A program made the position numbers and the translations under genes. 64,000 nucleotides of DNA, from positions 88,115 to 152,114 of the forward strand of contig CANMCD010000009.1 in assembly GCA_947496185.1 (NCBI GenBank), in the 5' to 3' direction. Of this stretch, positions 42,903 through 51,804 are shown piece after piece (position 1 is the stretch's first letter; every line of letters starts with the position of its first letter). The stretch is from an uncultured Tenacibaculum sp. (GTDB lineage: Bacteria > Bacteroidota > Bacteroidia > Flavobacteriales > Flavobacteriaceae). A model generated the notes under the pieces. It was not told the DNA's origin. It did not search any database and saw only the letters and a program-made list of their open reading frames with translations.

Positions 42903-43592
42903 TCAGTATGCATTTTCCGAAACAGTAAAGTATTCCATAAATACATTGTCTCCAGTCTTTTCTACACAAGTAGTACTTATAGTCTGTATATAAGATCTTT
43001 TCATTTGTATTGAAAACTCAGAAGCGCCTTTCGTTTTATCTTGATGAAAAGCAATAATAGCAGTCTTATTCATAACTTTATTCTCTTGTAACCACTCATC
43101 AAACCATTTTTTTCGCGTTTCTTTCATTTCTGGTGTGTATAAAGTAGCAGAAGACCAAATTCTAGGCGTTATAGCTATCTTACTAATATTTTTATTCTTG
43201 CCGTCCCAAATTAATTCCTTTGCAATTAAGGAAGTCTCCCACTCAATCATTATCAAAGTAAAAGGTTCAATATCTAAAAGATCAATTAACTCAAGTGCTT
43301 CAAATCCGTTTTTTTCTTTTAAAAGCTCTTTTACTATGAGCCCTCTACTCTTTCTGTAGGTAGCCTTCTTTTGGTGCTTTTGATAGGCGCCGTTTAACAA
43401 ACATATCAACCTTTTCTTGTCACTTGTTCCTATCCATGTACCTCCTGCTAATGCATCTTTTGGAAAAACCATTGTTACTCCATCTTCTTGATAAGACTTC
43501 GGTGCTATGGTTTTTCTCTTGCTTTGTTCGTCTCTATTTGAAGTGAGAATAAAATCATTATTACCTAAGGGAATAAATGTTACTGTACACAT
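42903..43592 (-). CDS. NRDE/TANGO2 family protein
   Basis: N-terminal MCT, SNRDE, GGTWIG, LLNG, SRGLIV. Confidence 0.92.
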   Translation of the reverse strand: MCTVTFIPLGNNDFILTSNRDEQSKRKTIAPKSYQEDGVTMVFPKDALAGGTWIGTSDKKRLICLLNGAYQKHQKKATYRKSRGLIVKELLKEKNGFEALELIDLLDIEPFTLIMIEWETSLIAKELIWDGKNKNISKIAITPRIWSSATLYTPEMKETRKKWFDEWLQENKVMNKTAIIAFHQDKTKGASEFSIQMKRSYIQTISTTCVEKTGDNVFMEYFTVSENAY

Positions 43593-43729
43593 ACAATCAT
43601 CGTTTTACATAAATAAGAAACGTAAACTACATTTCTATTACTAAAAATAAATGTAACTTTGTTCACCAAATGCTAAAGCTACGGTTTTTAGCTCAGAAAA
43701 TAAATTTAATAACAAACAACATACTAAAA

Positions 43730-45355
43730 ATGGGAAAAGGTTTTTTTCACGTGCCAACTGCCATTAACGAACCTGTAAAAGGGTATGCCCCAGGCTCGCC
43801 AGAAAGAGAAGCGGTTTCTAGACAATACAAAGAATATTTTAACGGTTCTGTTGACGTACCAATGTATATCGGTACAGAGGAAGTTAGAACTGGAAATACG
43901 CGTAATATGACACCTCCTCACGACCATCAACATGTAGTAGGTCAATACCACATTGGTGATAAAAGTCATGCGGAAAAAGCTATTGCCACTGCTTTAGAGG
44001 CTCGTAAAGAATGGTCTCAAATGCCTTGGGAACAAAGAGCTGCTATATTTTTACGTGCTGCGGAACTAATTGCAGGCCCTTATCGTGCAAAGATCAATGC
44101 AGCAACTATGATCGCACAATCAAAAACAGTACACCAAGCTGAAATTGATGCTGCTTGTGAATTAATTGATTTCCTTCGTTTTAATGTAGAGTATATGTCT
44201 GACATTTATAACGAACAACCAAATTCTGATGATGGTATTTGGAATAGAGTAGAATACAGACCTCTAGAAGGATTTGTATATGCGATTACTCCGTTCAATT
44301 TCACGGCAATTGCGGCAAATTTACCAGCTTCTGCAGCCATGATGGGAAATGTTGTTGTTTGGAAGCCTTCAGACAGTCAAGTATTTTCTGCTAAGGTAAT
44401 TGTAGATATTTTCAAAGAAGCAGGAGTACCTGATGGTGTAATTAATGTAATCTATGGGGATCCTGTAGAAATTACAGATACCGTATTGGCTTCACCTGAC
44501 TTTGCTGGAATTCATTTTACTGGATCTACGTTTGTATTCAAAGAGCTTTGGAAAAAAATCGGAGAAAATATTCATACGTATAAAACCTATCCAAAGATTG
44601 TAGGAGAAACAGGTGGTAAAGATTTTATCATTGCACACCCTTCTGCGAATCCAAAACAAGTAGCTACAGGAATTTCGCGTGGTGCTTTTGAATTCCAAGG
44701 ACAGAAGTGTTCTGCAGCTTCTAGAGTATATTTACCTAAATCTATTGCTAATGAGGTATTAAATTTTGTTAAAGAAGATATCGCTTCATTCAAAATGGGT
44801 TCTCCAGAAGATTTAAGCAACTTCATTACAGCTGTAATTCACGAAGGATCATTTGACAAACTTGCTTCGTATATCGATCAAGCTAAGAATGATTCAGATG
44901 CTGAAGTTATCGCTGGAGGAAATTATGACAAATCTAAAGGATACTTTGTAGAACCAACGGTTATCTTAACAACCAATCCAAAGTATACGACTATGGAAAC
45001 GGAATTATTCGGCCCTGTAGTTACGATTTACGTTTATGAAGATGCGGATTGGAAAGAAACATTAGCGTTGGTAGACGCTACTTCTGAATATGCATTAACA
45101 GGTGCTGTATTCTCTACGGATCGATATGCTGTAACGGAAGCTACTCAAGCATTAGAAAACTGTGCGGGTAACTTCTACATCAACGACAAGCCAACAGGAG
45201 CTGTTGTAGGACAACAACCTTTTGGAGGTGCTAGAGCTTCAGGGACAAATGACAAAGCAGGTTCTGCTCAAAACTTGTTAAGATGGGTATCTCCTCGTTT
45301 AATCAAAGAGACGTTTGTTTCTCCTTCTGATTATCGTTACCCTTTCTTAGGTTAA
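43730..45355 (+). CDS. pruA: L-glutamate gamma-semialdehyde (P5C) dehydrogenase
   Basis: EIDAACELIDF, PFNFTAI, FTGST, GETGGK, GQKCSA, ELFGP, GQQPFGGARASGTNDKAG; start MGKGF at 43730; TAACTTTG at 43654-43661. Confidence 0.95.
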   Translation: MGKGFFHVPTAINEPVKGYAPGSPEREAVSRQYKEYFNGSVDVPMYIGTEEVRTGNTRNMTPPHDHQHVVGQYHIGDKSHAEKAIATALEARKEWSQMPWEQRAAIFLRAAELIAGPYRAKINAATMIAQSKTVHQAEIDAACELIDFLRFNVEYMSDIYNEQPNSDDGIWNRVEYRPLEGFVYAITPFNFTAIAANLPASAAMMGNVVVWKPSDSQVFSAKVIVDIFKEAGVPDGVINVIYGDPVEITDTVLASPDFAGIHFTGSTFVFKELWKKIGENIHTYKTYPKIVGETGGKDFIIAHPSANPKQVATGISRGAFEFQGQKCSAASRVYLPKSIANEVLNFVKEDIASFKMGSPEDLSNFITAVIHEGSFDKLASYIDQAKNDSDAEVIAGGNYDKSKGYFVEPTVILTTNPKYTTMETELFGPVVTIYVYEDADWKETLALVDATSEYALTGAVFSTDRYAVTEATQALENCAGNFYINDKPTGAVVGQQPFGGARASGTNDKAGSAQNLLRWVSPRLIKETFVSPSDYRYPFLG

Positions 45356-45382
45356 GAAATTACTATATCTTTTATTATATAT

Positions 45383-45415
45383 AAATAGCTGCCCGATTGG
45401 GCAGCTATTTTTTTT
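45383..45415. terminator. Bidirectional-type terminator after pruA
   Basis: AAATAGCTGCCC-GATT-GGGCAGCTATTT plus T-run. Confidence 0.88.
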
Positions 45416-45429
45416 CATGCAATAAGAAA

Positions 45430-46311
45430 TTAATTATTTTTGATTTTTTCAAACTCATTACTTTGATTTGCTTTTACATACCTAGCATTTAAAACTTCGT
45501 TTGTTTCTCCGTCAGTAACCATTACAACGAACGCTAATTTTGATTTGTCTTTTACATTTTTAGGAATGCTAATTTTAAATTGCTTTTTAAAGATATTTCC
45601 TTTTTTAGTTGCTTTAGCATTAATAACATCACCTAAAGGATTCGTAAATGAATACCTTAACACATCGTTATGTTCATAACCTACGATAGGATTTTTTCCA
45701 AGATTTGGATTATTATTACTTTGATCAGCAACTATCCCATCTTCTAGGACAAAAGCCGATAGCTTTATCTTATTATCATAAGTTTTAGCAAACTGAATCT
45801 CTATATCTAAGGAAACATTACTCGCTACTTTTGAATTTAATTTCACCCCTAAATAACTCTCTTTACCAAATAATTCTAGAATCTTATCTTCTTTCACATA
45901 CTTATCTCTATTTTTATCATTTTCATCTATAGTACCACTCCAGTCCAACCATTTCTTCCTATCTACATCTACCGTAGGATAAAACGAAATTTCATTCCAT
46001 CCTAACAAGACTTGTGAATACTTATTCCACATAATATCCTTATAGTTTGACGGATGATGAGTAATCGAAAAAATATTTTTTTTCTGCTTTTTTATTTTCT
46101 TGACCTTATCCGCAGCAGAAGGACACCACGCACACCAAGTAGCTGTATAGTATTCTAAAACCACATTCCTTTTAAAAGAGTAATCAACCTCCACTTTGGG
46201 TTCATCTTTTGGATCTTTAATATCATCCGAATCATTGCTTGAACAAGAAATTTGTAGTACACATGTCAATGCCAAACATAAAACACTTGCTTTTTTTAAA
46301 ATTGTTTTCAT
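45430..46311 (-). CDS. Omp28-related thioredoxin-fold lipoprotein (CxxC intact)
   Basis: Lipobox QISC, VVLEYYTATWCAWCP, FYPT, LEDGI, YEHNDVLR. Confidence 0.8.
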   Translation of the reverse strand: MKTILKKASVLCLALTCVLQISCSSNDSDDIKDPKDEPKVEVDYSFKRNVVLEYYTATWCAWCPSAADKVKKIKKQKKNIFSITHHPSNYKDIMWNKYSQVLLGWNEISFYPTVDVDRKKWLDWSGTIDENDKNRDKYVKEDKILELFGKESYLGVKLNSKVASNVSLDIEIQFAKTYDNKIKLSAFVLEDGIVADQSNNNPNLGKNPIVGYEHNDVLRYSFTNPLGDVINAKATKKGNIFKKQFKISIPKNVKDKSKLAFVVMVTDGETNEVLNARYVKANQSNEFEKIKNN

Positions 46312-46667
46312 AATGTAATATTTTTAAGTTTTTATACCGCGTAATTAAAACAATTCATTTTTTATCTACCCTAATTATTTTTTGTTTAATTTTTAACATA
46401 AAACACTACACTATTGACTATCAAAAAACTAAACAAATACTCGTCTCCAAAAATATTTCCCATTTATATATTTAGTATTTATTTAACACTAGTCACTCCC
46501 AAAAACAGCTTAAAAATTTTTTTTTTTGAAAAAATTAAAAATTAAGTACTAAACTTAGTTTTCTAATGATATTTTAAGTTATCAACCGCAATTTTGAGTT
46601 TAATCTTTAAGTAGTAGACTTAGGGTCAATCCTCTATTAGAAATTATAACATAACAAATTAAATATC

Positions 46668-47156
46668 ATGATGAAACCTATTCTTTTTATTAGCCTTACG
46701 CTATTATTTATTTCAAATTCTTTTTCTCAGAAAAACATTCCTAACAAAAATCTTGAAAATTTACAGGGACAGACCGTTAACATTCATAATGAAATAACTA
46801 AAGACAAAATAACCGTCTTGAGTTTTTGGGCAACTTGGTGTATTCCTTGTCTTAATGAACTCGATGCTATAGACGAAGTTTATGAAGATTGGCAGGAAGA
46901 AACCAATGTTGAATTGATCGCTATCTCTACAGATGACGCACGATCACAAAAACGTGTAAAAGCACTCGTCAATGGGAAAGGATGGGAATACAAAGTACTT
47001 CTTGACAAAAATCAAGAACTTAAAAGAGCTCTAAATATAAATACAGTTCCTGAAGTTTTGGTTGTAAAAAATGGAAAGGTCATATACAGACACTCAGGAT
47101 ACGCTCCTGGTTTTGAAGACAAACTTTTCCAAATCCTTAAAGAAAACGCCCTTTAA
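46668..47156 (+). CDS. TlpA family thiol-disulfide oxidoreductase (exported)
   Basis: Signal peptide, SFWATWCIPCLNEL, VPEVLVV. Confidence 0.9.
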   Translation: MMKPILFISLTLLFISNSFSQKNIPNKNLENLQGQTVNIHNEITKDKITVLSFWATWCIPCLNELDAIDEVYEDWQEETNVELIAISTDDARSQKRVKALVNGKGWEYKVLLDKNQELKRALNINTVPEVLVVKNGKVIYRHSGYAPGFEDKLFQILKENAL

Positions 47157-47173
47157 CCCTCCTCTGATATATC

Positions 47174-48826
47174 ATGAAAAAACTGACTTATATTACATAT
47201 CTACTGTTATTTTTGCCATTAATTTTCTTTGGTCAGAAAAAAAGTAATGTTGTGCTTGGCTTAGAATCCAATTCTCAATATTACACCGATGATTCAAAAA
47301 CTGGAGAGTTCAAAGAATCGAATCGTTTTAGATCAAATAATTATATCTCTGCGCTTTATGAATACAAAAATTTTTATGCAGGACTTCAAATAGAAAGCTA
47401 TTCACCACAAAGCTTGTTAAACTATTATTCAGGTTTTGAAAAAACAAATTTAGGATTGTATTATGCAGGTTATAAGAACAATAAAATAGAAATTACGCTT
47501 GGCCATTTTTATGAACAATTTGGTAGCGGACTAGCCCTTAGGTCTTGGGAAGACAGACAACTAGGGATAAATAACGCTTTACGCGGTGGACGAATTAAAT
47601 ATACTCCTTTTGATTATTTAGAATTCAAAGCACTTTATGGTAAACATCGAGCCGGATTTGAACATTCAAAAGGAACTGTTTTTGGGTTTGATATCAATAT
47701 TTTAATATCTGATCTTATTAATTTAAAAAGTACGGATCTATCCCTTGGTTTTAGCTACGTAAGTAAAAACGAAAAAAATGATACTTCGAGTAATTTAGTC
47801 AGTGATATGACCAATGTTTTTGAAGGAAGAATTGATTTTTCTAAAAAAAACTTCTATTCGAGTATACATTATACACACAAAGGAAAAGAGCCTATTTTTT
47901 TCTTAAGAGATGTAAAAGCTGTAAAAACTGGATCAGCATATACCTTAAACCTTGGTTATACACAAAAAGGACTAGGTATAGATGCTACATTTAGAAGATT
48001 AGAAAACATGGATTTTTACGCTGAACGATCGAAAAAAGGGAACGACTTTAGTCAATATATCGTCAACTATGTTCCGGGTCTTACCAAACAACATGACTAT
48101 CTTTTATCAAATATATATGTATACCAAGCTCAGCCTCAAGTTTCCTTCTTTTTACCTCCAAGATTCGGTGAAATTGGAGGGCAATTAGATATTTTTTATA
48201 ACATAAAGAAGAAAACTTTTTTGGGCGGAAAATATGGAACTAAAATTGCCGCAAACGTTGCTTATTGGTATGGATTAAAAGGAGAGGCTGATCATTCAAA
48301 CCCCACATTATATGACTATACGGTTTCAACATTTGGCTTTGGAGACAAATACTTCTCCGACATGAGTATTGAAATTCGTAAAAAATGGTCTAAAAAATGG
48401 AATAGTATTTTCTATTATGTAAACCAATTTTATAACATGGAATATCTAGAGCAAAAACCAGGAGTGGTTAATGCTGATATTGCCGTTGCTGAGACTACCT
48501 ATAAAATAGGTGGGGGGGCTTCTATTCGATTTGAAGCGCAACATCTCTGGACCAAAGATGATAAAAAGAACTGGATCGGTGGTACATTGGAATACAATCT
48601 ATCTCCTTATATTTCTTTCTATGTAAATGATATTTACAACTACGGAAATGATGATCTTTCTAAAAGAATACATTACTATAATGTTGGAGGAAATTACACT
48701 TACAAATCTAATCGTATTGGTCTTAGCTATGGAAGACAACGTGGTGGTCTAATATGCATAGGAGGGGTATGTAGGTTTGTTCCTGAAAGCTCTGGCCTAA
48801 CCATTAATCTCAGCATCAATTTTTAG
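47174..48826 (+). CDS. DUF6029-like probable outer-membrane beta-barrel
   Basis: Signal peptide, YEQFGSGL, Tyr/Gly-rich alternating strands, RQRGGLICIGGVCR near C-terminus, terminal Phe; family from recall. Confidence 0.7.
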   Translation: MKKLTYITYLLLFLPLIFFGQKKSNVVLGLESNSQYYTDDSKTGEFKESNRFRSNNYISALYEYKNFYAGLQIESYSPQSLLNYYSGFEKTNLGLYYAGYKNNKIEITLGHFYEQFGSGLALRSWEDRQLGINNALRGGRIKYTPFDYLEFKALYGKHRAGFEHSKGTVFGFDINILISDLINLKSTDLSLGFSYVSKNEKNDTSSNLVSDMTNVFEGRIDFSKKNFYSSIHYTHKGKEPIFFLRDVKAVKTGSAYTLNLGYTQKGLGIDATFRRLENMDFYAERSKKGNDFSQYIVNYVPGLTKQHDYLLSNIYVYQAQPQVSFFLPPRFGEIGGQLDIFYNIKKKTFLGGKYGTKIAANVAYWYGLKGEADHSNPTLYDYTVSTFGFGDKYFSDMSIEIRKKWSKKWNSIFYYVNQFYNMEYLEQKPGVVNADIAVAETTYKIGGGASIRFEAQHLWTKDDKKNWIGGTLEYNLSPYISFYVNDIYNYGNDDLSKRIHYYNVGGNYTYKSNRIGLSYGRQRGGLICIGGVCRFVPESSGLTINLSINF

Positions 48827-48833
48827 GTTTCGA

Positions 48834-48876
48834 AAAGTCCTATTGATACAAAAAAATATCCAGATAGGACTTTTTG
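48834..48876 (+). terminator. Hairpin after DUF6029-like gene
   Basis: AAAAGTCCTAT ... ATAGGACTTTT. Confidence 0.6.
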
Positions 48877-48889
48877 TTTTTGCATTCAA

Positions 48890-48960
48890 TTACACCACAA
48901 AATTCAATATCATAAAATAATGGCTAATTTTACCTCCTGAAACAAAGAAATACTAAATAA
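48890..48960 (-). pseudogene. Decayed copy of the 3' end of the hemolysin III gene
   Basis: 36-nt exact match 48893-48928 = 50545-50580, flanked by diverged alignable sequence. Confidence 0.85.
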
Positions 48961-48972
48961 ATATCATTGCAT

Positions 48973-49271
48973 TACCCATAGATACGCTATAACGGAAGCT
49001 ACTCAAACATTAAAAAACTGTGTGGACAACCGCTACATCAACGATAAGCCAACAGGAACTGTTGTAGGGCAAAAACCTTTTGGAAGTATTAGAGCTTCAG
49101 GAACAAATGACAAAGCTGGTTCTAATCAAAACTTATTAAGATAGGGTTTTCCTCGTTTAATTTAAAAAAACCTTGTTTTTTTTCCATAAGATTATCGTTA
49201 TCCTTACTTACATTAAGAAATTACTATATATTTATTATATATAAATAGCTGCCCAATCGGGCAGCTATTTT
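48973..49271 (+). pseudogene. Decayed copy of pruA 3' end plus its terminator
   Basis: Aligns along its length to 45115-45411; pruA TGG is TAG in the copy; terminator AAATAGCTGCCC-AATC-GGGCAGCTATTT at 49243-49270. Confidence 0.92.
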
Positions 49272-49297
49272 AATTTTATAGGAATATCACTTATATT

Positions 49298-50365
49298 TTA
49301 ATAGTAATACGCATATTCACTACTTTGATTTGCTTTTACATACCTAGCATTTAAAACCGAATTAGTTTTAGCATTACATACCATAACCACAAATCCTAGA
49401 TTTGACTTATTGGTTACATTCGAGGGTATATTTGCCTTAAATTTCTTTTTGTATATATTATTCTTTATTTGCTTAGGGTCGATTTTATCCCCTAATACAT
49501 CTGTAAAAGAATGTCTCAATACATTATTATACTCATAATCCTTAATAACAGCTGTAGCACTATTATCCATCAAAAGGACTTTCTGATCAGCTTTTAAGCC
49601 ATCCTCTAAAAGAAAAACAACTAATTTCAAATTATTAAAATCTTCTTCTTTATAAAGTTTAAACTCTACATCTAAAAGTATTTCAGAATCTAATTTTGAT
49701 TTTAATTTTATTCCTATTAGACTCTTATCATGGCTAACACCTTTCTTAAAAAGCCTATTCCCTCTTTTCTTTAATGGATCAAATGACATAGATCTACTGT
49801 ATAAAAGACAAGGAGCGTCAAAAAGTTCATTTAGTTTGTTGGAAAACTCATTTTGCATAATATCGAAATCACCTTTAGGTGAGTTGACATGAAATTCAAC
49901 TGAAATAAGTCCATTTAATATCTTATAATTTGTATCGAGTATTATTGATCGCAAATGGTGAGAAGGGTCCCAAGTTCCTGTAAAATATTCTAACACTTCA
50001 TTCTGCTTAAAGAAATTCTTTTTGTCAATTACCGTAAGGTCTAGTTCATTTATACTTTTGTTTTCTTTGTACTCCGCTCTAACTTTGTAGTTATCTGCTT
50101 TAGAGAATATAAACTTACTACTGCTTATTTCTTTATCATTTATATAAATTTTTGATTTGCTGGTTATATCTTCTCCGCTGTCTTTTTTTACCGTAAATAC
50201 AATTTCTTCACCTGTAGCGATATAGTCATCTTTTATATCAACTGCTATTTTTACGTTTACTTTTTCCTCTACGGGATCTGGGCGATTAGCAGGTTCTTCG
50301 TCGGAGCAAGAAATTTGAAAAATACTTACTAAAATAAAAAGTACTGATTTACTTAGATTATTCAT
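49298..50365 (-). CDS. Omp28-related lipoprotein paralog with N-terminal Ig-like segment, CxxC lost
   Basis: Lipobox QISC; VLEYFTGTWDPSHH; LEDGL, YNNVLRHSFTDVLGD, VLNARYVKANQS shared with 45430-46311. Confidence 0.8.
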   Translation of the reverse strand: MNNLSKSVLFILVSIFQISCSDEEPANRPDPVEEKVNVKIAVDIKDDYIATGEEIVFTVKKDSGEDITSKSKIYINDKEISSSKFIFSKADNYKVRAEYKENKSINELDLTVIDKKNFFKQNEVLEYFTGTWDPSHHLRSIILDTNYKILNGLISVEFHVNSPKGDFDIMQNEFSNKLNELFDAPCLLYSRSMSFDPLKKRGNRLFKKGVSHDKSLIGIKLKSKLDSEILLDVEFKLYKEEDFNNLKLVVFLLEDGLKADQKVLLMDNSATAVIKDYEYNNVLRHSFTDVLGDKIDPKQIKNNIYKKKFKANIPSNVTNKSNLGFVVMVCNAKTNSVLNARYVKANQSSEYAYYY

Positions 50366-50541
50366 TATAGTTTTTAATTTTTATAGTTATATATATAACA
50401 TTTTAACTATAATTCCCCCTAACGACGACTACAACAATTAACATTTCTCACAATTAAAAAAAGCCATTACCCCCACCCAAAAAAACACTAAACCAACACC
50501 TTAACCTTTACTAAGCGTCTATAACTAATTTTCAAAATAAA

Positions 50542-51165
50542 TCACACCACAAAATTCAATATCATAAAATAATGGCTAATGGCACCTGCCAATACAAAGA
50601 AATGCCAGATAACATGATTATATTTCATTTTTTCTAAAACATAAAATACAATTCCCCCAGTATAAAACAGGCCTCCTAAAAATAATAAAAACAATCCATC
50701 AGAAGGCATAACACTAGTTAACCCCTTATAATCAAGCACAATTAACCATCCCATAACCACATACAATAGCGTAGAAACTTTCTCAAATCTCCCTGTAAAA
50801 AAAAGTTTTAAAAAAGCTCCAACAGCAGCGATTCCCCACATAACCCAAAACAACAACCACCCATTACCTTGCTGCATTAAAAGTAGTAATACAGGAGTAG
50901 AAGTTCCTGCTATCAGCAAATAAATACTTATGTGGTCTATAATTCTAAAATAATGCTTTCGCTTTGTATCACTTACCGCATGATATAAGGCAGAAGCTGT
51001 AAATAAAACAATAAGTGACACTCCATACACCCATATACTAAACAAACTCCAAGGCTTTATTGTACTTTGAGATAGTAAAACAACAAACCCGACAATTCCT
51101 AATAATGCACCTAGGGCATGTGAAACTGTATTTAAAAGTTCTTCTTGTTTGGATTGTATTCGCAT
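50542..51165 (-). CDS. Hemolysin III / PAQR family membrane protein
   Basis: EELLNTVSH, SALYH, IDHISIYLLIAGT, YVVMGW, HVIWHFFVL. Confidence 0.93.
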   Translation of the reverse strand: MRIQSKQEELLNTVSHALGALLGIVGFVVLLSQSTIKPWSLFSIWVYGVSLIVLFTASALYHAVSDTKRKHYFRIIDHISIYLLIAGTSTPVLLLLMQQGNGWLLFWVMWGIAAVGAFLKLFFTGRFEKVSTLLYVVMGWLIVLDYKGLTSVMPSDGLFLLFLGGLFYTGGIVFYVLEKMKYNHVIWHFFVLAGAISHYFMILNFVV

Positions 51166-51174
51166 AACAACTTC

Positions 51175-51804
51175 TTAACCTTTATATTTTATAGGTAAAT
51201 GCACTACTTTTTTCGTTTCAAAAAACACTTCTTCAAAATATTTCGACAAAGGATAAATAACTGCACTTGGAAACTTTTGTAGTTCCTCAGTTAAATCACC
51301 TCCTTTTAAATATAAAATTCCATTTCTTATATCATGATTTTGTTTTTTCTGCACCTTATTCTTTACCCAGCGATGAAAGGTTTCCATTTGAGCTACGGCC
51401 CTACTCACAATAAAATCATAGGTATCATCAACCTCTTCTACTCTACCATGCGTTGTTTTTACATTTTGTAATGCCAATCCTGCTACCACTTCGTTCACCA
51501 CTTTTATTTTCTTACCTATAGAATCTACCAAATGAAAACTTGTTTCTGGAAATAAAATAGCCAAAGGAATACCAGGAAATCCTCCTCCTGTACCCACATC
51601 CATTACCTTCGTATTTGGCTTAAACCGCATTACTTTTGCAATCCCTAAAGCGTGCAAGACATGTCGTAAATACAACTCGTCAATATCCTTTCTAGAAACC
51701 ACATTTATCTTTAAATTCCAGTCCTTATACAGCTCTTGTAACATTCCAAATTGTACTTTTTGTTCTGATGTCAAATCTGTAAAATACTTCTCTATGATTT
51801 CCAT
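51175..51804 (-). CDS. rsmG: 16S rRNA (guanine527-N7) methyltransferase
   Basis: WNLKINVVSR, HVLHAL, DVGTGGGFPGIPLAI, IVSRAV, YLKGG. Confidence 0.96.
   Translation of the reverse strand: MEIIEKYFTDLTSEQKVQFGMLQELYKDWNLKINVVSRKDIDELYLRHVLHALGIAKVMRFKPNTKVMDVGTGGGFPGIPLAILFPETSFHLVDSIGKKIKVVNEVVAGLALQNVKTTHGRVEEVDDTYDFIVSRAVAQMETFHRWVKNKVQKKQNHDIRNGILYLKGGDLTEELQKFPSAVIYPLSKYFEEVFFETKKVVHLPIKYKG

What the first reader, a model, noticed from the sequence alone, without database searches (positions are those of the whole stretch)
45115..50630. Fossil tandem duplication revealed by fused decayed tails of hemolysin III and pruA
Seen: order is pruA > terminator < Omp28-1, TlpA >, DUF6029 >, [hlyIII 3' fragment 48890-48960][pruA 3' fragment + terminator 48973-49271] < Omp28-2 < hlyIII. 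The two fragments abut at ~48960-48973, exactly the junction expected from a head-to-tail duplication of the segment running from the pruA tail to the hlyIII tail. The second copy lacks TlpA/DUF6029. Inference: illegitimate tandem duplication, then loss of the redundant genes and retention of a diverged second Omp28 paralog. Neither fragment appears in the ORF track.
Basis: partly seen in the sequence, partly recalled or inferred. Interest (0 to 1): 0.7.

Follow-up and report, generated by a model that had tools for sequence, protein, structure and literature searches.

The report
Fossil duplication joint, older Omp28 paralogs
A dead end-piece of a hemolysin-III gene lies against a dead end-piece of pruA, marking a real, fairly recent head-to-tail duplication joint in a Tenacibaculum genome. 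The two Omp28 genes are much older than that joint, so this is ordinary locus reshuffling, not the birth of a new paralog.

Summary
Region 48973-49271 is a decayed copy (81-83%) of the pruA 3' end plus terminator (45115-45411). Region 48877-48960/72 is a decayed copy (78-81%) of the hlyIII 3' end (50529-50612/24). The two abut within about 12 nt, and the genome holds no other copies.

Outgroups show that the pruA piece is a true pseudogene. It carries 34 private changes spread over all codon positions, against 5-10 on the live gene, nearly all at third positions. It also shares 10 substitutions specific to this lineage, and a terminator that differs in sequence from those aligned from 11 relatives.

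Omp28-1 and Omp28-2 are saturated at synonymous sites: 16 of 25 fourfold sites differ, against 15 of 82 third positions in pruA/pruA'. The interiors of the two copies share no detectable recent homology.

No relative shows the predicted order. Relatives have pruA>&lt;hlyIII&lt;rsmG, or pruA>&lt;Omp28a&lt;hlyIII&lt;Omp28b TlpA> DUF6029>&lt;rsmG, or pruA>&lt;Omp28 TlpA> DUF6029>.

My best reading is that two differently loaded versions of one cargo slot between the pruA terminator and hlyIII were joined head to tail. A within-genome duplication followed by two reciprocal deletions is the close rival. Interest is low to moderate.

The parts
43670..45355 (+). pruA (1-pyrroline-5-carboxylate dehydrogenase type aldehyde dehydrogenase), live gene. 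Relatives start at the MGKGFF methionine (43730).
   Evidence: Pfam Aldedh 342 bits; 88-94% identical to relatives
45115..45411 (+). Parent segment p+T: the last 80 codons of pruA, the 3' UTR and the terminator hairpin (stem 45383-45410). It is the left-hand shared flank of both copies.
   Evidence: Repeats D1, D4, D5; terminator scan; fold -19.8 kcal/mol, z -4.5
45430..46311 (-). Omp28-1. A lipoprotein with an intact WCAWC motif that lacks the ~85-aa N-terminal segment seen in most relatives.
   Evidence: Pfam Omp28 76.6 bits; alignment
45459..45495 (-). 37-nt island identical to 49321-49357 (codes VLNARYVKANQS).
   Evidence: unique in the genome and absent from 12 relatives' loci
46668..47156 (+). 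TlpA-like thioredoxin-fold protein.
   Evidence: Pfam AhpC-TSA/Redoxin
47174..48826 (+). DUF6029 protein.
   Evidence: Pfam 687 bits, full length
48831..48876 (.). Hairpin t. A bidirectional terminator between DUF6029 and the dead hlyIII tail.
   Evidence: Folds on both strands at -18 and -16 kcal/mol, z -4.0 and -4.5
48877..48972 (-). h': the dead hlyIII 3' end. It holds 13 nt of 3' UTR, the stop codon and the last ~21-27 codons.
   Evidence: 78-81% to 50529-50624
48961..48972 (.). Novel joint J1 (hlyIII-internal point joined to pruA-internal point).
   Evidence: Three-way comparison
48973..49271 (+). p'+T': the dead pruA 3' end (in-frame stop, indels) plus a conserved terminator hairpin (49243-49270). 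The hairpin now lies just downstream of Omp28-2.
49298..50365 (-). Omp28-2. A lipoprotein with its CxxC motif lost (WDPSHH) that keeps the N-terminal segment.
   Evidence: Pfam Omp28 81.6 bits; alignment
50366..50528 (.). Spacer i between the Omp28-2 start and the hlyIII 3' UTR. It has no similarity to anything in copy 1.
   Evidence: z 0.3-0.7 against shuffles
50542..51165 (-). hlyIII (PAQR/TrhA type), live gene. It lies 9 nt downstream of rsmG.
   Evidence: Pfam HlyIII 135 bits; 62-67% to the copies at this locus in 7 Tenacibaculum genomes; junction with rsmG
51175..51804 (-). rsmG, the conserved right-hand border of the variable locus.
   Evidence: Pfam GidB; 79-87% in relatives

Best explanation
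The hlyIII'|pruA' joint (48961-48972) is the scar of one duplication-type event. It happened in this lineage after its separation from every sampled relative, about one third of the way back along its terminal branch. The dead pruA piece has since gained about 0.14 substitutions per site.

The event did not create Omp28-2. It joined, head to tail, two differently loaded versions of a single cargo slot. That slot lies between the pruA terminator T and the 3' UTR of hlyIII. The first version carries Omp28-1, TlpA, DUF6029 and terminator t (3465 nt). The second carries Omp28-2 plus a 163-nt spacer (1257 nt).

My preferred route uses DNA from a close strain that carried the alternative cargo. One end recombined by homology, in pruA or in hlyIII/rsmG. 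The other end was joined illegitimately inside the partner gene. This is homology-facilitated illegitimate recombination, or equivalently integration of a circularised fragment. The product has only about 300 and about 97 nt of repeated DNA, so it is stable against RecA-mediated collapse from the start.

Today T' serves as the terminator of Omp28-2, and h'+p' is dead spacer.

Shown: the joint, the direction of decay, the origin of the fragments in this lineage, the age gap between fragments and Omp28 genes, and the non-homology of the interiors. Inferred: the second haplotype and the recombination route.
For: Direction of decay and origin:
- Polarised decay: 34 changes on the fragment branch spread 14/15/5 over codon positions, against 10 on the live branch with 9 at third positions.
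- There are 10 shared sites specific to this lineage, 5 private to the live tail and 34 private to the fragment.
- The terminator sequence differs from those aligned downstream of pruA in 11 relatives.
- h' and p' are equally diverged: 16/84 and 46/246.

Age of the Omp28 pair:
- At fourfold sites 16 of 25 differ, equal to the between-species level. dS is about 1.7.
- The N-terminal 270 alignment columns give no sister relation, with branches of 1.5 and 2.2.

Interiors and slot:
- The interiors are unalignable.
- Homology stops exactly at the end of T (45411/49271) and resumes 13 nt before the hlyIII stop.
- Put together, these two flanks rebuild a pruA>T<hlyIII spacer of about 70 nt. G188 has 75 nt there and G076 has 52 nt. 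Both cargos therefore sit at one insertion point.
- The slot is variable across species.
- Both adjacencies look native. Hairpin t is a proper bidirectional terminator 13 nt from the h' stop. The Omp28-2 to hlyIII spacing is 176 nt, against 172-181 nt for Omp28a to hlyIII in G197, G282 and G224.
- Taken alone, Omp28-2 joins the Omp28a clade (86/90).
- No remnants of other genes are left, which fits joining better than deletion.

Precedent: gene 3' fragments left by displacement of cassettes are described for Vibrio cholerae T6SS arrays (PMC5361080, found; I read only the title and abstract).
Against: No strain with either single-cargo haplotype could be found. The best foreign hits to the locus proteins are 27% (Omp28-2), 69% (hlyIII) and 65% (DUF6029). 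The second haplotype is therefore hypothetical.

The full-length Omp28 tree makes Omp28-1 and Omp28-2 sisters (95/89). The AU test mildly disfavours placing Omp28-1 with the TlpA-side clade (p 0.036). This would fit an in-lineage origin of both, although long-branch attraction and the C-terminal part drive it.

As far as I know, natural transformation is not documented for Tenacibaculum. Microhomology at the joint can no longer be read after the decay.
Confidence: 0.4

Rival explanations
1. Within-genome tandem duplication followed by reciprocal loss. The ancestor had pruA> T <Omp28-2 <Omp28-1 TlpA> DUF6029> t <hlyIII <rsmG, with two already old Omp28 paralogs. The unit of about 5.1 kb from the pruA tail to the hlyIII tail duplicated head to tail. 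Copy 1 then lost Omp28-2, and copy 2 lost Omp28-1, TlpA, DUF6029 and t. The net result is a change of gene order.
For: It has the same joint and the same ages as the best explanation, and it needs no donor strain. G205 has pruA> <Omp28 <Omp28 TlpA> DUF6029>, and G012 and G019 have the cluster next to pruA. G188, G076 and G000 share the tight rsmG-hlyIII pair. The adjacency D> t <h' looks native. The sisterhood of Omp28-1 and Omp28-2 in the full tree fits an older local duplication of Omp28.
Against: It needs two separate deletions. Their four end points must fall within a few nt of hairpin or gene borders, and they must leave no fragment of about 4.7 kb of lost genes, while 244 and about 90 nt of pruA and hlyIII fragments survived. 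By established knowledge, a perfect 5-kb tandem repeat is very unstable in RecA-proficient bacteria and would usually collapse before two deletions fixed it. The 176-nt Omp28-2 to hlyIII spacing would match relatives' 172-181 nt only by chance.
Confidence: 0.3
2. An old tandem duplication, as old as the Omp28 divergence, whose non-coding flanks (p'/T' and h') were kept similar to their parents by repeated gene conversion until fairly recently.
For: The 37-nt perfect island between the two Omp28 genes shows that conversion-like exchange occurs between the copies. Omp28-1 and Omp28-2 are sisters in the full and C-terminal trees.
Against: Two separate donors 5 kb apart would have had to stop converting h' and p' at the same time (19% and 19%). 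There is no patchwork of identical tracts inside p'. TlpA and DUF6029 would still have to be deleted without trace.
Confidence: 0.1
3. A single duplication of pruA tail-Omp28-TlpA-DUF6029-hlyIII tail, then loss of TlpA/DUF6029 in copy 2, with Omp28-2 diverging from Omp28-1 afterwards.
For: The joint topology; Omp28-1 and Omp28-2 are each other's best match in the genus over the shared domain (43%).
Against: Synonymous saturation of the Omp28 pair against 18% in the fragments (16/25 against 15/82). Amino-acid branches are 0.97 and 1.56 per site, where neutral decay allows about 0.3. The Omp28 upstream regions and the 47-49 nt next to the terminator are unalignable.
Confidence: 0.04
4. Chance similarity or an assembly artefact.
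For: None.
Against: E-values of 1e-79 and 8e-17. The copies are 17-22% diverged, with the decay polarised as expected for a pseudogene. An assembler does not create that pattern.
Confidence: 0.01

Closest known systems
Tandem-duplication join points in bacterial chromosomes (RecA-independent, microhomology-mediated duplications; established knowledge from the Roth and Andersson laboratories)
   Same: A novel joint made of the end of a unit followed by its start, both in the same orientation, cutting two genes whose intact copies remain at the outer borders.
   Different: Here the two units do not hold the same genes. The interiors share no recent homology, and the joint is old enough to be 17-22% decayed.
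Tandem duplication-random loss (TDRL) model of gene-order change, mainly described for animal mitochondria (e.g. PMC3283314, PMC5975268)
   Same: A duplicated block, complementary retention of genes in the two copies, leftover pseudogene pieces, and a changed gene order.
   Different: This is a bacterial chromosome with homologous recombination. There are no remnants of the supposedly lost genes. TDRL is only the second-ranked route here.
Homology-facilitated illegitimate recombination and cassette displacement that leaves gene 3' fragments (PMC3240628; Vibrio cholerae T6SS effector/immunity arrays, PMC5361080)
   Same: One homologous anchor plus one illegitimate joint adds a new cassette beside the old one and leaves truncated 3' ends of the flanking genes as fossils.
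   Different: No donor haplotype was observed, there is no effector/immunity logic, and the competence of the organism is unknown.
Omp28-TlpA-DUF6029 gene cluster of Flavobacteriaceae
   Same: The divergent pair Omp28 / TlpA-DUF6029 is conserved in 12 relatives.
   Different: Only this genome has the cluster between pruA and hlyIII together with a second Omp28 beyond a fossil joint.

Membership tests
Tandem (head-to-tail) duplication joint | Two direct repeats in the same orientation, with the unit end abutting the unit start at a novel joint | tested here: met
   h' (the end of the unit) lies immediately left of p' (the start of the unit), with the same strands as the parents
Tandem (head-to-tail) duplication joint | Fragments derive from this lineage's own flanking genes | tested here: met
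   10 shared derived sites; terminator sequence unlike those aligned from 11 relatives; closest match is the genome's own gene (83% against at most 78% to relatives)
Tandem (head-to-tail) duplication joint | The interiors of the two units are homologous and of the same age as the flanks | tested here: not met
   Interiors are unalignable. The Omp28 pair is saturated at synonymous sites.
Tandem duplication-random loss | Gene order differs from the outgroup order by a block interchange, with the same gene content | tested here: inconclusive
   Gene content equals that of G197, G282 and G224 in a different order. However, the rsmG-hlyIII adjacency shows that G000 is not derived from that order. 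The required ancestor was not observed.
Tandem duplication-random loss | Remnants of the lost duplicate genes | tested here: not met
   Only the two border fragments remain. There is no trace of Omp28, TlpA or DUF6029 copies.
Homology-facilitated illegitimate recombination | A donor carrying the alternative cargo between the same flanks | not testable with these tools
   No close relative exists in the genome or protein collections.
Homology-facilitated illegitimate recombination | Short microhomology at the illegitimate joint | tested here: inconclusive
   The joint region of 12-20 nt is too decayed to read
Omp28 (PF11551) | Score above the Pfam gathering threshold (34.9 bits) | tested here: met
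   76.6 bits (Omp28-1) and 81.6 bits (Omp28-2)
HlyIII / PAQR (PF03006) | Score above the Pfam gathering threshold (26.2 bits), full length | tested here: met
   134.8 bits over residues 6-199. The fragment h' keeps only the last ~21 codons.

The most novel reading that the evidence does not exclude
This locus preserves a datable fossil of how a bacterial chromosome stacks two alternative cargo cassettes at one insertion point, or, on the rival route, changes gene order by tandem duplication and reciprocal loss. If the rival route is true, it would be one of the few bacterial cases of the mitochondrial-style TDRL mechanism caught with both border pseudogenes intact.
Probability: 0.3. Interest if true: 0.4.

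Novelty: new member of a known kind. Interest (0 to 1): 0.28.

Why it matters
This is a clean, internally dated example of locus remodelling at a variable slot between two core genes in Tenacibaculum. It shows that border pseudogene fragments can date a rearrangement independently of the genes inside it.

It also corrects an attractive but wrong inference, namely that the second Omp28 arose by this duplication. That matters for any functional reading of the CxxC-less Omp28-2. Omp28-2 is an old paralog, apparently with positional counterparts next to hlyIII in other species, and not a freshly neofunctionalised copy.

Beyond that, it is ordinary bacterial genome evolution.

Tried and rejected
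- I looked for closer relatives that could show the ancestral or alternative haplotype. The genus-wide genome searches (267 species) and the 5.8-billion-protein searches found nothing closer than 27-69% identity for the locus proteins.
- I considered deriving G000 from the G197-type order (Omp28a-hlyIII-Omp28b-TlpA-DUF6029). I rejected this because G000 shares the tight rsmG-hlyIII adjacency with G188 and G076 and is not inside the G194/G197 clade.
- I considered Omp28-1 as a recent chimera of the two paralogs, formed by crossover at the 37-nt island. I rejected this because the 47-49 nt between the island and the terminator are unalignable.
- I checked other genera (Pontimicrobium, Winogradskyella). 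There hlyIII sits after DUF4294, so they do not help polarise the locus.
- The composition profile shows no foreign-DNA signal.
- Rfam gives nothing above threshold; the sub-threshold hits fall on or next to the terminator hairpins.
- No fossil fragments of pruA or hlyIII exist in 13 relatives' loci.


Full report
**1. The observation**

The window region reads as follows:
- pruA (43670-45355, +)
- terminator T (stem 45383-45410)
- Omp28-1 (45430-46311, -)
- a TlpA-like protein (46668-47156, +)
- DUF6029 (47174-48826, +)
- a gene-free stretch (48827-49297)
- Omp28-2 (49298-50365, -)
- hlyIII (50542-51165, -)
- rsmG (51175-51804, -)

The gene-free stretch holds two direct repeats.
- 48973-49286 matches 45115-45424 at 82.9% over 315 nt. 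This is the last 80 codons of pruA, the 3' UTR and the terminator.
- 48877-48973 matches 50529-50624 at 78% over 97 nt, or 81% over the ungapped 84 nt. This is 13 nt of 3' UTR plus the last ~21-27 codons of hlyIII.

Against shuffles, z is 105 and 24. The whole genome has no further copy. The hlyIII-derived and pruA-derived parts meet within about 12 nt, at 48961-48972.

**2. The fragments are real pseudogenes from this lineage and are fairly young**

I aligned the pruA tails of 11 relatives. Of the 46 differences between the live tail and the fragment:
- 34 fall on the fragment branch, spread 14/15/5 over codon positions;
- 10 fall on the live branch, 9 of them at third positions.

With nine Tenacibaculum outgroups, 10 sites are derived and shared by both copies. 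These include the K-to-Q change in ATQ and a CGT-to-AGA arginine codon. Five sites are derived only in the live tail and 34 only in the fragment.

The terminator sequence is common to both copies, with the only two substitutions in the 28-nt hairpin falling in the loop. It is unlike the sequence downstream of pruA in the 11 aligned relatives.

So the fragment was copied from this lineage's own pruA in about the last third of its terminal branch. It has since decayed by about 0.14 substitutions per site. The hlyIII fragment is equally diverged: 16/84 against 46/246. This fits one event making both.

**3. The Omp28 genes are much older than the joint**

- Omp28-1 and Omp28-2 are 41% identical.
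- Nei-Gojobori estimates give dS of about 1.7 and dN of 0.55.
- At fourfold sites of residues conserved in both, 16 of 25 differ (64%). G000-versus-G197 orthologs show 48-68%. Third positions of pruA/pruA' show 15 of 82 (18%).

Beyond the genes:
- The Omp28-2 upstream spacer (50366-50528) has no similarity to anything in copy 1 (z 0.3-0.7).
- The 47-49 nt between the terminator and the Omp28 C-termini are also unalignable.

Recent homology is therefore confined to three places: p+T (up to 45411/49271), the 13 nt plus hlyIII tail, and one 37-nt perfect island inside the Omp28 genes (45459-45495 = 49321-49357).

**4. Relatives**

Names attached to database hits place the genome in Tenacibaculum. 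Mapping the window's proteins onto 30 loci from relatives gives these arrangements:
- G188, G076: pruA> T &lt;hlyIII &lt;rsmG. The pruA-hlyIII spacer is 75 and 52 nt, and hlyIII starts 15 and 6 nt after rsmG. G000 has 9 nt there.
- G194: pruA> &lt;hlyIII &lt;Omp28b TlpA> DUF6029> &lt;rsmG.
- G197, G282, G224: pruA> &lt;Omp28a &lt;hlyIII &lt;Omp28b TlpA> DUF6029> &lt;rsmG.
- G205: pruA> &lt;Omp28 &lt;Omp28 TlpA> DUF6029>.
- G012, G019: pruA> &lt;Omp28 TlpA> DUF6029>.
- G005, G004, G006, G114: other cargo, namely a DEAD-box helicase and DUF1800/DUF1501 proteins.

None shows the predicted single order pruA-Omp28-TlpA-DUF6029-hlyIII, and none carries fossil fragments.

A tree of four flanking core proteins places G194 with G197, G282 and G224 in one clade. 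G000 falls in an unresolved polytomy with G005, G188, G076 and G114. Together with the shared tight rsmG-hlyIII pair, this argues that G000 is not a rearranged G197-type locus.

**5. Omp28 phylogeny**

- The full-length tree makes Omp28-1 and Omp28-2 sisters (95/89), with terminal branches of 0.97 and 1.56 changes per site.
- The signal comes from the C-terminal 82 columns. The first 270 columns leave the pair unresolved, with branches of 1.5 and 2.2 and a long-branch warning.
- Taken alone, Omp28-2 joins the Omp28a clade that also lies next to hlyIII in G197, G282 and G224 (86/90). Taken alone, Omp28-1 is unresolved.
- AU tests are weak: p 0.036 against Omp28-1 grouping with the TlpA-side clade, and p 0.08 for Omp28-2 with Omp28a.

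Whichever topology holds, the split is far older than the joint.

**6. What the flanks say**

Homology between the copies ends exactly at the right edge of hairpin T. It resumes 13 nt before the hlyIII stop. Joined together, these flanks give a pruA>T&lt;hlyIII spacer of about 70 nt, which is the empty configuration seen in G188 and G076. Both cargos therefore occupy the same insertion point.

Both adjacencies also look native.
- Hairpin t (48831-48876) folds on both strands (-18 and -16 kcal/mol, z -4.0 and -4.5). It lies 13 nt from the dead hlyIII stop, as a shared terminator of a convergent gene pair would.
- The Omp28-2 to hlyIII spacing is 176 nt, against 172-181 nt for Omp28a to hlyIII in G197, G282 and G224.

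**7. Explanation**

The core conclusion has my confidence at about 0.8. One duplication-type event in this lineage produced the joint, and the two Omp28 paralogs and the cargo difference predate it.

I see two routes to the present structure.

*H1, about 0.4.* Two haplotypes of the slot were joined by one homologous and one illegitimate exchange. This explains three things:
- why only the two border fragments exist;
- why both adjacencies look native;
- why the product, with only about 300 and about 97 nt of repeat, escaped recombinational collapse.

*H2, about 0.3.* A unit of about 5.1 kb holding both Omp28 genes duplicated within the genome. Two clean reciprocal deletions followed. This route needs no donor. 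It does need four neat end points, no remnants of the lost genes, and survival of a perfect 5-kb repeat.

Three further readings rank lower:
- An old duplication with converted flanks (about 0.1). It is disfavoured because h' and p' have equal ages despite separate donors.
It is contradicted by the synonymous-site data.
- An artefact (about 0.01).

**8. Limits**

No close relative exists in any collection searched, so neither route can be observed directly. Rfam and composition add nothing.

**9. Verdict**

This is a genuine and neatly datable fossil joint at a variable cargo slot. The paralog-birth story is wrong. Novelty is low: it is a new member of a known kind. Interest is about 0.28.

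Noticed in passing
window 45459-45495 and 49321-49357: A 37-nt stretch is perfectly identical between the otherwise saturated Omp28 genes (it codes VLNARYVKANQS). It is flanked by unalignable DNA on the terminator side. It is unique in the genome and absent from 12 relatives' loci. It is either a short gene-conversion patch or a constraint at the nucleotide level.
   Followed up: partly
window 49298-50365 versus 45430-46311: Omp28-2 has lost the WCxxC motif (it reads WDPSHH) but keeps an ~85-aa segment after the lipobox. Omp28-1 keeps WCAWC but lacks that segment. Most relatives' copies have both features. G194's single copy (296 aa) also lacks the segment.
   Followed up: partly
L036 9439-14234, L037 8931-11668, L038 5896-9951, L080 2038-9524: The pruA-rsmG interval is a cargo hot spot across Tenacibaculum. 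In G005, G004, G006 and G114 it holds a DEAD-box helicase, DUF1800 and DUF1501 (with a Por secretion tail) and other genes, instead of the Omp28 cluster.
   Followed up: partly
window 50542-51165; relatives' loci L044-L047: G000's only hlyIII is the type found at the pruA-rsmG locus (62-67% to 7 Tenacibaculum genomes; 65-69% to Pontimicrobium and Winogradskyella, where it follows DUF4294). Many other genomes in the genus set instead show a copy about 45% identical, which in the five where both genes lie on one contig is 145-250 kb from pruA. G000 lacks that copy.
   Followed up: partly
L084 10979-11451 (G205): An internal 236-nt tandem repeat (83%) lies inside the pruA-side Omp28 gene (504 aa). 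It looks like duplication of the N-terminal segment.
   Followed up: no
L074 9369-9428 versus 11335-11394 (G197): The two Omp28 paralogs of G197 share a 60-nt stretch at 85% identity although the rest is saturated. This may be another conversion patch, or the conserved CxxC region.
   Followed up: no
L078 6728-7060 (G188): A tandem array of ~82-nt units (91-94% identical) lies just outside the TANGO2-like gene.
   Followed up: no
window 42903-43592: The TANGO2-family gene next to pruA is only 44-57% identical to its positional orthologs, whereas pruA is 72-94% identical. It is evolving unusually fast for a syntenic neighbour.
   Followed up: no
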